DNA from: Escherichia coli
GTDB taxonomy: Bacteria; Pseudomonadota; Gammaproteobacteria; Enterobacterales; Enterobacteriaceae
Length of the DNA stretch: 64,000 nt
Assembly: GCF_036507355.1 (NCBI RefSeq)
Contig: NZ_AP027877.1
Reading direction: 5' to 3' (one strand)
Shown here one piece after another: positions 24,001 through 27,000 of this stretch. Every line of letters begins with the position of its first letter. Positions within the stretch are counted from its first letter, which is position 1. Made by a program: the position numbers.

Positions 24001-27000
24001 TCTCGCAAGAAATAATGTCAAATATCTCAAACTAATAAAAACAACTAAAACATTAGACGTAACACACATCCCACACGACCTGTCGCTCATAGCTTTTATA
24101 TTTATTTTTTCACATCAATGTAGATAAAAACACGCATTAAAAATGATTTGTAGAAAAGCTGCACAATAAATAGTTCATATTTAATCTGTTGCGTAGAACT
24201 ACTATTCAAAAAATCTTATTAATGAGATAATGAGATTACATCGATAACGTTCTGATGGCAGGCATACTTATCTGGGTGTGCCTCTTTTTTTTACAACTGT
24301 ACACGGTGGCGTATGACGAGAAAATATCTCACACAGGATGAAGTCTACAGGCTGATGGATGCAGCCCAGAGCATGTCCTTTCCTGAAAGAAATCGCTGTC
24401 TAATTATGATGGCTTTCATTCACGGTTTTAGGGCCAGTGAACTTCTTGATTTACGTTTATCCGATATTGATGCATCAGGAAAACAACTTAATATTCGGCG
24501 TATTAAAAATGGTTTCTCGACGACACATCCTCTTCTTCCTGATGAATATAATTTGATCAAGTTGTGGCTTAAGCAGAGGAAGTTAATTGAAAACGGAGTT
24601 GAAGGAGACTGGCTTTTTCTCTCCCGGAAACGCCGCCCTATCAGCAGACAACATTTTTTTTCTATCATTCGTGAGGCTGGAAAACGTGCAGGATTTGAAT
24701 CGCCACGGATAATCTAGACACTTCCGAGCCGTTGATAATACTGGTTTTCATATTCTGTCGGTGACATCTGATCGCTGGAACCATGCCGACGCTTACTGTT
24801 ATAAAACATTTCGATGTAATCAAAAATATCGCTGCGGGCTTCTTCCCGCGTTCCGTAGATCTTTTTCTTTATCCGTTCGCGTTTCAACAACTGGAAAAAG
24901 CTTTCTGCAACCGCATTATCATGGCAGTTACCGCGACGGCTCATGCTGCCATCCAGGCCGTGTGATTTCAGGAACGACTGCCACTCATGGCTTGTGTACT
25001 GACTGCCCTGATCCGAATGAACCAGCACCTGTTTTTGGGGATTACGGCGCCATACAGCCATCAGCAGTGCGTTCAGGACAATGTCCTTTGTCATCCGGGA
25101 TTGCATGGACCAGCCGATAATTTTGCGTGAGAACAGATCAACAACCACGGCAAGATACAGCCAGCCTTCGTGGGTCCTGATGTAGGTTATGTCCGTTACC
25201 CAACGCTTATCCGGAGCATCCGGATTGAACTGTCGCTGGAGCCTGTTGGGCGACACGATACTGGCCTCGCCTTTACGTGCCCGCGGGCTCCGGTATGCGC
25301 GAGGTTACCGACTGCGGCCTGAGTTTTTTAAGTGACGTAAAATCGTGTTGAGGCCAACGCCCATAATGCGGGCTGTTGCCCGGCATCCAACGCCATTCAT
25401 GGCCATATCAATGATTTTCTGGTGCGTACCGGGTTGAGAAGCGGTGTAAGTGAACTGCAGTTGCCATGTTTTACGGCAGTGAGAGCAGAGATAGCGCTGA
25501 TGTCCGGCGGTGCTTTTGCCGTTACGCACCACCCCGTCAGTAGCTGAACAGGAGGGACAGCTGATAGAAACAGAAGCCACTGGAGCACCTCAAAAACACC
25601 ATCATACACTAAATCAGTAAGTTGGCAGCATCACCGCCATCTTAAATGACTCTGAGGTGTCTGTTAAACCCGTGGCGATTCAATTGCCTGCAAAAGGAAC
25701 AACTAAAAAGCTGGTTTAGTGCCGTGCGTAGCCTCAATAATCCTATTGCATCGGCCTATCTCCAAGTACTTTTGCTCACTGGTGCTCGGCGTGAAGAAAT
25801 TGCGTCGCTTCGCTGGTCAGACGTAGATTTCAAATGGTCAAGCATGCGAATTAAAGACAAGATCGAAGGTGAACGTATCATCCCTCTCACTCCTTATGTT
25901 TCTGAATTGTTAAATGTACTAGCGCAATCCCCAAATTCTGACGTAAATAAGGAGGGTTGGGTTTTCAGAAGTAACAGTAAAAGTGGCAAAATTATTGAGC
26001 CGCGTTCAGCGCACAACAGAGCGTTAGTGCTGGCTGAGTTACCACATATCAGCCTTCACGGTTTACGTCGTAGTTTTGGTACTTTGGCCGAGTGGGTTGA
26101 AGTTCCCACTGGTATTGTTGCTCAAATTATGGGACACAAACCCAGCGCTCTTGCCGAAAAACACTATCGCCGTCGTCCGTTAGATCTGTTACGAAAATGG
26201 CACGAGAAAATTGAGACATGGATCTTAAATGAAGCAGGTATTACCATAAAAAACAACGTTGATATGCGTTGATTCCATTAAAAATCAACATATTACAAAA
26301 TATCATCAACTATTGAACAAGATAGATTTTCATGTATCGTAATACACAGTTTAGTCAATGATACAGCAACTACACAGGAGATAAGCCAATGGCAACCACA
26401 GCAACTGTATCCATAGAACCCACTCTGGCAGCTATCAGAGCTCGCTGGTGTATTAATTCAAGTAAAACAACTCAATCCTTTAACGATCCTGCGTCCATGG
26501 AAGAGGTTGTCGAGTATCTCAAAGGAACATACTCAGCTCTTCGCAAGTCTGTCGCATGCGCCAAACTGAAAATTTTACATCTTAAACAAAGAATGCAAAA
26601 TGCTACTAACTTTCTCGCGCGTCTGATGTCATGTAAAAATCAGGCATCCAGATCGCATCACAGTACGGCTAAATCAGCTAAAAGTGCCTTATCATCAGAT
26701 TCAGGTGATGGTAGTGACCCCGACCCCGAGCCCGAAACGTTTCCTTCTGCCTTCATTACTACCCCTACTAATTCAATAATGCTTAAAGCTTTCTTTGCCA
26801 ATATCTCAATCACTGAGGTGGCAAAATGAGCGCATTCAAACTCCCGGATACATCTCAATCACAGCTCATTTCAACAGCTGAGTTAGCTAAAATCATTAGC
26901 TACAAATCTCAAACCATTCGTAAATGGCTTTGTCAGGACAAATTGCCTGAGGGGCTACCTCGCCCAAAACAAATCAATGGCCGCCATTACTGGTTACGTA

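What the first reader, a model, noticed from the sequence alone, without database searches (positions are those of the whole stretch)
25634..26272. Island integrase decapitated by IS1
Only the catalytic C-terminal third of the P4-type integrase survives (R, H-x-x-R and Y present), so the island can no longer excise by itself. No second copy of the thrW 3' end was found in the window, so the island appears fixed.
Basis: seen in the sequence. Interest (0 to 1): 0.3.

Follow-up and report, generated by a model that had tools for sequence, protein, structure and literature searches.

The report
Truncated CP4-6 prophage integrase remnant
This is the dead 3' part of intF, the integrase gene of the E. 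coli cryptic prophage CP4-6, cut off by an IS3-family insertion sequence (not by IS1) in a deletion that also removed the prophage's far attachment site, which is ordinary prophage decay.

Summary
The core observation holds. Window 25683-26272 (+) is the last 590 nt of intF, the integrase of cryptic prophage CP4-6 at thrW. It is nucleotide-identical to an intact allele and encodes IntF residues 271-466 of 466. That is exactly the Pfam Phage_integrase domain, with R306, H396-x-x-R399, H422 and Y432. The arm-binding domain and the middle of the protein are gone.

Three details are wrong or loose:
- IS1 does not touch intF. The 47 bp at 25636-25682 are the precise terminus of a 1,230-bp IS3-family element. 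The IS1 piece (nt 1-343) is nested inside that element.
- The other part of the same element (24696-25296) abuts a truncated ipbA next to betA. One hybrid IS therefore bridges ipbA' and 'intF, which marks a deletion of about 31 kb.
- 42% of the protein survives, not a third, and IntF is only distantly related to P4 Int.

The 60-bp thrW att repeat occurs once in the window. The first 811 nt of intF, attR and the yagP side are absent. No other tyrosine recombinase is present. Intact CP4-6 in K-12 excises measurably, so this copy is most likely immobilised. This is ordinary and already known in kind.

The parts
25683..26272 (+). 'intF: 3' 590 nt (nt 812-1401, aa 271-466 plus stop) of the CP4-6 prophage integrase gene. 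It encodes the catalytic domain only.
   Evidence: Identical to intF of E. coli 1008S13 from 25683 onward. Pfam PF00589 65.3 bits. R, HxxR, H and Y located.
25646..26272 (+). Chimeric ORF of 208 aa. It starts at an ATG inside the IS3-family terminus and reads in frame into 'intF.
   Evidence: Listed as an ORF. No sigma-70-like site on the + strand upstream of it. The exact protein is not on record elsewhere.
25636..25682 (-). Terminal 47 bp (left inverted-repeat end, TGAATCGCCACGG...) of a 1,230-bp IS3-family insertion sequence, annotated 'ISX' in K-12. Its outer terminus abuts 'intF.
   Evidence: 100% match to L011 2684-2730, the end of a complete copy. Four different genomic contexts diverge exactly after ...GGCGATTCA. 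Present in 2,077 of 5,426 E. coli genomes, on chromosomes and plasmids.
25293..25635 (-). IS1 fragment: nt 1-343 from the left inverted repeat, with insA (25305-25580). It has no insB and no right end, and it sits inside the IS3-family element.
   Evidence: 98.5% to K-12 IS1B and IS1C. The insA ORF is listed.
24696..25296 (-). Right-end-proximal ~601 bp of the same IS3-family element (3' part of the transposase orfB). Its outer terminus abuts ipbA'. It overlaps the IS1 fragment by about 4 bp (25293-25296).
   Evidence: 99.8% to L011 1501-2102. Annotated 'IS3 family transposase' in the matching genomes.
24313..24695 (+). ipbA' : 5' part of the tyrosine invertase gene ipbA (fimX/hbiF), truncated by the IS3-family element.
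   Evidence: 99.7% to the betA-ipbA region of FDAARGOS_943 up to 24695. Pfam PF00589 profile positions 1-124 of 172.
26389..27050 (+). yagN and ykgV. ykgV is a 74-aa HTH_17 helix-turn-helix protein. Both lie immediately downstream of 'intF and are intact.
   Evidence: Annotation of the matching E. coli loci. Pfam HTH_17 27.8 bits for ykgV.
48389..48448 (-). The only copy in the window of the 60-bp CP4-6 attachment repeat, which is the 3' part of thrW plus 11 bp.
   Evidence: The K-12 left and right att copies were read. Single match in the window.
48400..48475 (-). thrW, tRNA-Thr(CGU), intact.
   Evidence: ARAGORN. The sequence reads the same as K-12 thrW.
27169..48388 (.). Rest of the CP4-6-like island: yagM, yagL, yagK, a yagJ-like gene, IS1, afuB'C, mmuMP, an IS5-like element, a lutABC-dld-lactate permease insert, an IS1 fragment, an IS3-type orfA fragment, and yafY' through ykfI.
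   Evidence: blastn against K-12 CP4-6. Annotation of matching E. coli loci. Pfam.

Best explanation
The feature is a pseudogene remnant of intF, the tyrosine integrase of a CP4-6-type cryptic prophage integrated at thrW.

Shown:
- An IS3-family element (1,230 bp when complete) has its exact terminus at nt 811/812 of intF.
- The other terminus of the same, internally damaged, element sits in ipbA next to betA.
- Everything that lies between ipbA and intF nt 811 in other E. coli is missing from the window. That comprises about 31 kb in strain ECC-1470: yagP, paoABCD, the ecp operon, fdeC, rclABCR and ykgEFGH. The right-hand att copy and the first 811 nt of intF are also missing.

Inferred, most likely history:
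- Two copies of the IS, in the same orientation, were inserted in ipbA and in intF.
- Homologous recombination between them deleted the interval and left one hybrid copy.
- IS1 inserted into that IS 47 bp from its end.
- A later deletion at about 4 bp of microhomology removed IS1 nt 344-768 and 581 bp of the IS3-family element.

Consequence (inferred):
- The remnant encodes only the catalytic domain. It lacks the arm-binding and core-binding parts and has no obvious promoter.
- Only one att site remains, so site-specific excision of the island is no longer possible.
- The island can now be lost or reshaped only by IS-mediated or other recombination.
For: - intF identity and breakpoint.
- Domain content of intact IntF (Arm-DNA-bind_3 at aa 55-119, Phage_integrase at aa 273-434) and of the remnant.
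- The 47 bp are an IS3-family terminus, and flanks diverge exactly at ...GATTCA in four contexts.
- The 47 bp and the 602-bp piece map to the two ends of one 1,230-bp IS, in the same orientation.
- The left terminus is precise in ipbA. The right terminus is precise in intF.
- ipbA' and 'intF keep the order and orientation seen in other E. coli (betA ... intF ... thrW). The 31-kb interval is absent from the window.
- attR, intF nt 1-811 and yagP-paoC are absent. The att core is single copy.
- No other tyrosine recombinase ORF in the six frames of the window.
- Intact CP4-6 in K-12 excises at 1-27 per 100,000 cells (PMC3105296). The intact element is therefore excision-proficient, and this copy has lost that capacity.
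- The exact IpbA'-IS fusion protein is present in four other assemblies, two of them with only 93% identical flanks. This suggests the ipbA insertion is a separate, older or wider event.
Against: - Both flanks of the hybrid IS are ATT. Under the two-copy model this is a coincidence of roughly 1 in 64.
- Neither predicted ancestral junction (IS right end + ipbA continuing; intF 5' part + IS left end) was found in 5,426 complete E. coli genomes. The first of these was also not found in the JGI metagenomes.
- The rest of the source genome is not available. An intact intF paralogue, or a relocated copy of the deleted 31 kb, elsewhere in the genome cannot be excluded.
- Loss of excision is inferred, not measured.
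Confidence: 0.85

Rival explanations
1. Only one IS3-family copy was ever involved. It inserted into intF and duplicated ATT. A deletion between the 4-bp microhomology GATT in ipbA (GGATT|AG) and the GATT next to the IS left end in intF (TGATT|IS) then removed the 31 kb.
For: - The identical ATT flanks and shared GATT are explained without coincidence.
- A microhomology deletion of about 4 bp demonstrably happened inside the same element, at the IS1/IS3 junction 25293-25296.
Against: - The deletion end-point would have to fall exactly at the IS terminus.
- The same IpbA'-IS fusion is seen in assemblies with 93% identical flanks. This fits an independent insertion in ipbA better.
- No intermediate was found.
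Confidence: 0.12
2. One reading: IS1 inserted into intF, or made an adjacent deletion from its own end, and thereby removed the 5' part of intF.
For: - IS1 lies 47 bp from the breakpoint.
- IS1 has a precise left-end terminus at 25635.
- IS1 is known to make adjacent deletions (general knowledge).
Against: - The 47 bp between IS1 and intF are neither IS1 nor intF. They are the terminus of an IS3-family element, and that terminus is flush with intF.
- IS1's terminus is joined to the interior of that IS, not to intF.
Confidence: 0.02
3. Assembly artefact: two separate IS copies, one in ipbA and one in intF, were collapsed by the assembler, and the 31 kb is really present.
For: - Junctions at repeated IS sequences are classic misassembly points.
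- No other genome in the collections searched shows the same right-hand junction.
Against: - The bridging IS has a unique internal structure (IS1 fragment plus 581-bp deletion). That structure would have to exist in a real copy.
- The window runs through several other complete IS copies without breaks.
Confidence: 0.02

Closest known systems
intF (b0281) of cryptic prophage CP4-6, E. coli K-12
   Same: - Same gene: the surviving 590 nt are identical to an intact E. coli allele.
- Same downstream genes: yagN, ykgV, yagM, yagL, yagK.
- Same integration site (thrW) and the same 60-bp att core.
   Different: - Here nt 1-811, the right-hand att copy and the flanking chromosome are deleted.
- The island lacks the K-12 IS1-flanked argF/xylonate segment.
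- The island carries a lut-dld-lactate permease insert.
P4-type integrases (P4 Int; IntA of CP4-57)
   Same: - Intact IntF has an N-terminal Arm-DNA-bind_3 domain plus a C-terminal tyrosine recombinase domain.
- It uses the 3' end of a tRNA gene as its attachment site.
   Different: - Similarity is only distant: 27% over 129 aa to P4 Int and 23% over 194 aa to IntA, against 36% over 402 aa between P4 Int and IntA.
- No match to P4 in a tblastn search of the phage collection (E-value limit 1e-5), which holds the P4 genome X51522.
- The gene lies at the end of the element far from the tRNA gene.
Deletion by recombination between two copies of an insertion sequence, leaving one hybrid copy
   Same: - One IS copy has different, non-matching host genes at its two precise termini.
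- Collinearity with the ancestral gene order is preserved.
- IS-IS recombination events are documented in E. coli (PMC5009759; title and abstract as listed).
   Different: - The two flanking triplets happen to be identical (ATT).
- The surviving IS is itself wrecked by an IS1 fragment and an internal deletion.
intQ of Qin and the integrase-less CP4-44 in K-12
   Same: These cryptic prophages have an inactive or missing integrase, and no excision was detected from them (PMC3105296).
   Different: Different elements and different lesions. Here one att site is lost as well.

Membership tests
Tyrosine recombinase / phage integrase catalytic domain (Pfam PF00589) | Match to the domain profile above the gathering score | tested here: met
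   65.3 bits against a cut-off of 27.1, profile positions 3-167 of 172
Tyrosine recombinase / phage integrase catalytic domain (Pfam PF00589) | Catalytic R ... H-x-x-R ... H ... Y residues | tested here: met
   R306 (TGARREE), H396/R399 (HGLRRS), H422 and Y432 are present in the remnant. They align with the R and HxxR of P4 Int and IntA.
P4-type integrase | N-terminal arm DNA-binding domain (Pfam PF13356, Arm-DNA-bind_3) | tested here: not met
   Present in intact IntF (42 bits, aa 55-119) but deleted from the window copy, which starts at aa 271
P4-type integrase | Full-length sequence similarity to P4 Int or IntA | tested here: not met
   Intact IntF against P4 Int: 27% over 129 aa. Against IntA: 23% over 194 aa. 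P4 Int against IntA: 36% over 402 aa. NCBIfam PRK09692: 15 bits against a cut-off of 434.
P4-type integrase | Element bounded by direct repeats of the 3' end of a tRNA gene | tested here: not met
   Met for K-12 CP4-6, which has the 60-bp repeat at both ends. In the window only the thrW copy remains.
CP4-6 cryptic prophage | Located at thrW, with conserved gene order from intF-yagN-ykgV-yagM-yagL-yagK to ykfI-yafW | tested here: met
   98.4-98.8% blastn blocks collinear with K-12 CP4-6. Annotations.
IS1 | 768-bp element with both inverted repeats and insA-insB | tested here: not met
   Only nt 1-343 are present (left repeat plus insA), at 98.5% identity. insB and the right repeat are absent. 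It is a fragment of an IS1, not a functional element.
IS3 family | TG...CA termini with imperfect inverted repeats, 3-bp target duplication, and a two-frame transposase with programmed frameshift | tested here: met
   The reference copy L011 1501-2730 has termini TGAATCGCCACGG.../...CCGTGGCGATTCA, a GCT duplication, and an annotated IS3 family transposase with programmed frameshift. The window holds only 602 bp + 47 bp of it.

The most novel reading that the evidence does not exclude
The identical ATT triplets on both sides of the bridging IS are not chance. They would record a single transposase-linked event, namely an IS3-family end-adjacent deletion resolved at GATT microhomology. This is a deletion route not usually credited to copy-out/paste-in IS3 elements. 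Alternatively, the in-frame chimeric ORF could express a catalytic-domain-only IntF with some residual or interfering activity.
Probability: 0.05. Interest if true: 0.3.

Novelty: already known. Interest (0 to 1): 0.1.

Why it matters
It matters little beyond correct annotation.
- The island at thrW is a CP4-6 variant whose integrase and distal attachment site were lost in an IS-mediated deletion. It should be treated as a fixed chromosomal segment, not as a mobile island.
- The same deletion removed about 31 kb of backbone that other E. coli carry (pao, ecp pilus, fdeC, rcl, ykgEFGH). It also inactivated the ipbA invertase. These losses may matter more for the strain's phenotype than the integrase does.
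- The case is a caution that the IS nearest a truncated gene is not necessarily the one that truncated it.

Tried and rejected
- Looked for the same right-hand junction (IS terminus + 'intF). None in 5,426 complete E. coli genomes, in the species-representative genomes or in the JGI metagenomes.
- Looked for the exact chimeric 208-aa protein. Not on record.
- Looked for the two predicted ancestral junctions, to decide between the two-copy and single-copy models. Neither is in the E. coli genomes. The discriminating one is also absent from the metagenomes. The question is unresolved.
- Tried to identify the source organism. The backbone is 98-99% identical to E. coli, but no complete E. coli genome covers the junction region. 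A Shigella or an unfinished E. coli genome is my guess, untested.
- Considered that the lutABC genes in the island might be the 'missing' ykgEFG moved by rearrangement. Rejected: only 83% identical, so a paralogue.
- Considered YagL as an alternative recombinase. The Pfam Resolvase match is below the cut-off and lacks the N-terminal catalytic part.
- Looked for a promoter for the chimeric ORF. None on the + strand upstream.

Full report
**What is at the coordinates**

- The ORF 25646-26272 (+) encodes 208 aa.
- From nt 25683 onward it is identical to the 3' end of intF of E. coli strain 1008S13. intF there is annotated as a tyrosine-type recombinase/integrase. It is followed, as in the window, by yagN, ykgV, yagM, yagL and yagK.
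- In K-12 MG1655 the same genes form the right end of cryptic prophage CP4-6, which starts inside thrW.
- The window holds one tRNA gene, thrW, at 48400-48475 (-). proA, proB and phoE lie beyond it, and betT-betI-betB-betA lie to the left of the finding.
- The 'island' is therefore a CP4-6-type element in an E. coli-like chromosome.

**How much of the integrase survives**

- Intact IntF is 466 aa. Pfam finds Arm-DNA-bind_3 at residues 55-119 and Phage_integrase at 273-434.
- The window copy begins at residue 271. It keeps the whole catalytic domain (65.3 bits, profile positions 3-167 of 172).
- It keeps R306, H396-x-x-R399, H422 and Y432.
- It has lost the arm-binding domain and the middle (presumed core-binding) part.
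- That is 196 of 466 residues, or 42%, rather than a third.
- The first twelve codons of the ORF come from foreign DNA (see below). No promoter-like site lies upstream on the + strand.

**What cut it**

- IS1 ends at 25635 with its left inverted repeat (...GGCAGCATCACC).
- The next 47 bp, 25636-25682, match neither IS1 nor intF. They occur in 2,077 of 5,426 E. coli genomes, on chromosomes and plasmids. There they lie at the 5' end of a transposase gene fragment. In K-12 they are the end of the element annotated 'ISX'.
- Four independent contexts are identical up to ...GTGGCGATTCA and diverge immediately after it. Position 25682 is therefore a true IS terminus, flush with intF nt 812.
- A complete copy of this IS (L011 1501-2730, 1,230 bp) has termini TGAATCGCCACGG.../...CCGTGGCGATTCA and a 3-bp GCT duplication. 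It is annotated as an IS3 family transposase with programmed frameshift.
- That copy matches the window in two pieces in the same orientation. Its first 602 bp match 24695-25296 at 99.8%, and its last 47 bp match 25636-25682 at 100%.
- Between the two pieces lie IS1 nt 1-343 (25293-25635). This fragment has insA but no insB and no right end. It overlaps the left piece by about 4 bp.
- IS1 therefore sits inside the IS3-family element and never touched intF.

**The other end of the IS**

- The left terminus of the IS3-family element (24696) abuts the 5' part of ipbA (24313-24695). ipbA encodes the tyrosine invertase also called FimX or HbiF, and in many E. coli it lies next to betA.
- One damaged IS thus has ipbA' on one side and 'intF on the other.
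- Both genes keep the orientation and order they have in other E. coli (betA ... intF ... thrW).
- In strain ECC-1470 the interval between betA and intF holds about 31 kb: ykgH, ykgEFG, rclRABC, fdeC, ykgMO, the ecp operon, paoABCD and yagP.
- None of this is in the window, apart from an 83%-identical lutABC paralogue inside the island.
- The pattern is that of a deletion between two directly repeated IS copies that left a hybrid copy.
- An oddity is that both flanks are ATT (GGATT|IS|ATTGCC). This is either a coincidence of about 1 in 64, or a sign that a single IS in intF was followed by a GATT-microhomology deletion.
- I could not decide between these. The predicted intermediates are absent from 5,426 E. 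coli genomes and from JGI metagenomes.
- The exact IpbA'-IS fusion protein does occur in four other assemblies. Two of them have only 93% identical flanks. This slightly favours an independent, wider-spread insertion in ipbA.

**Attachment sites**

- In K-12 the repeat CGCATTCGTAATGCGAAGGTCGTAGGTTCGACTCCTATTATCGGCACCATTAAAATCAAA occurs at the 3' end of thrW. It occurs again about 110 bp upstream of the intF start.
- In the window it occurs once, at 48389-48448. This holds with three mismatches allowed, for each half of the repeat separately, and with word-size-7 blastn.
- The K-12 sequences of intF nt 1-811, the right-hand att region and yagP-paoC give only noise-level matches.
- The distal att site was therefore removed by the same deletion.

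**Other recombinases**

- A phmmer search of all six-frame ORFs of 50 aa or more, using IntF, P4 Int, IntA and IpbA, finds only the two truncated genes.
- YagL is resolvase-like, but it scores below the Pfam cut-off and lacks the N-terminal catalytic part.

**Function**

- In K-12, with intact intF and both att copies, CP4-6 excises at 1-27 per 100,000 cells (PMC3105296).
- Here the integrase lacks its DNA-targeting domains and one recombination site is gone. Site-specific excision should therefore be impossible. This is inference, not measurement.
- The remnant is nucleotide-identical to an intact allele, and the IS pieces are 98.5-100% identical to their reference copies. The events therefore look recent.

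**Is it P4-type?**

- Only loosely. Intact IntF shares the domain plan and the tRNA-end targeting.
- It aligns to P4 Int over 129 aa at 27% and to IntA over 194 aa at 23%. P4 Int and IntA share 36% over 402 aa.
- A tblastn search of the phage collection (E-value limit 1e-5) finds no match to P4. That collection holds the P4 genome X51522.
- The NCBIfam P4-like integrase model scores 15 bits against a cut-off of 434.

**Verdict**

- The finding is real, but it is ordinary IS-driven decay of a well-known cryptic prophage.
- The agent was misattributed: it was an IS3-family element, not IS1.
- The extent was underestimated: the event was a 31-kb deletion that also truncated ipbA.

Noticed in passing
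window 48320-48345; K-12 L005 ~3003-3028 and 37057-37082: A 26-bp motif, TAATGTAAC(A)GCTGGTGTAAGTAAAT, lies just inside both att repeats of K-12 CP4-6 in the same orientation. One copy overlaps the intF start. These are candidate arm-type integrase binding sites. The window keeps only the thrW-side copy.
   Followed up: partly
window 24313-24695: ipbA (fimX/hbiF), a second tyrosine recombinase, is truncated by the same IS. The exact 134-aa IpbA'-IS fusion protein occurs in four other public assemblies. Two of them have only 93% identical flanking DNA.
   Followed up: partly
window 24693-24695 and 25683-25685: The hybrid IS3-family element is flanked by ATT on both sides, although the two flanks come from different genes. 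Both targets read GATT.
   Followed up: partly
window 36543-43995: The island carries a 7.4-kb insert that is not in K-12 CP4-6. It holds a gluconate permease fragment, a lutABC paralogue (83% identical to the chromosomal ykgEFG), dld and an L-lactate permease. It lies between an IS5-like element (35348-36542) and an IS1 fragment (43996-44350).
   Followed up: partly
window 30575-31334: A single complete but divergent IS1 (91% to K-12 IS1B) sits where K-12 has two IS1 copies flanking the argF and xylonate (yagA-yagI) segment. That segment is absent here.
   Followed up: partly
window 44351-44975: This stretch lies between the IS1 fragment and the truncated yafY. It holds an IS3-type OrfA transposase fragment (HTH_Tnp_1, 69.8 bits), which is one more IS remnant in the island.
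   Followed up: partly
window 28050-28748: YagL is resolvase-like. Pfam Resolvase scores 22 bits against a cut-off of 23.3, and only profile positions 49-141 match. It also has a C-terminal helix-turn-helix. It is probably not a catalytic recombinase.
   Followed up: partly
window 13028-16807: A 1,259-aa ORF lies beyond betT, at the position where strain ECC-1470 has the autotransporter adhesin gene ehaA.
   Followed up: no
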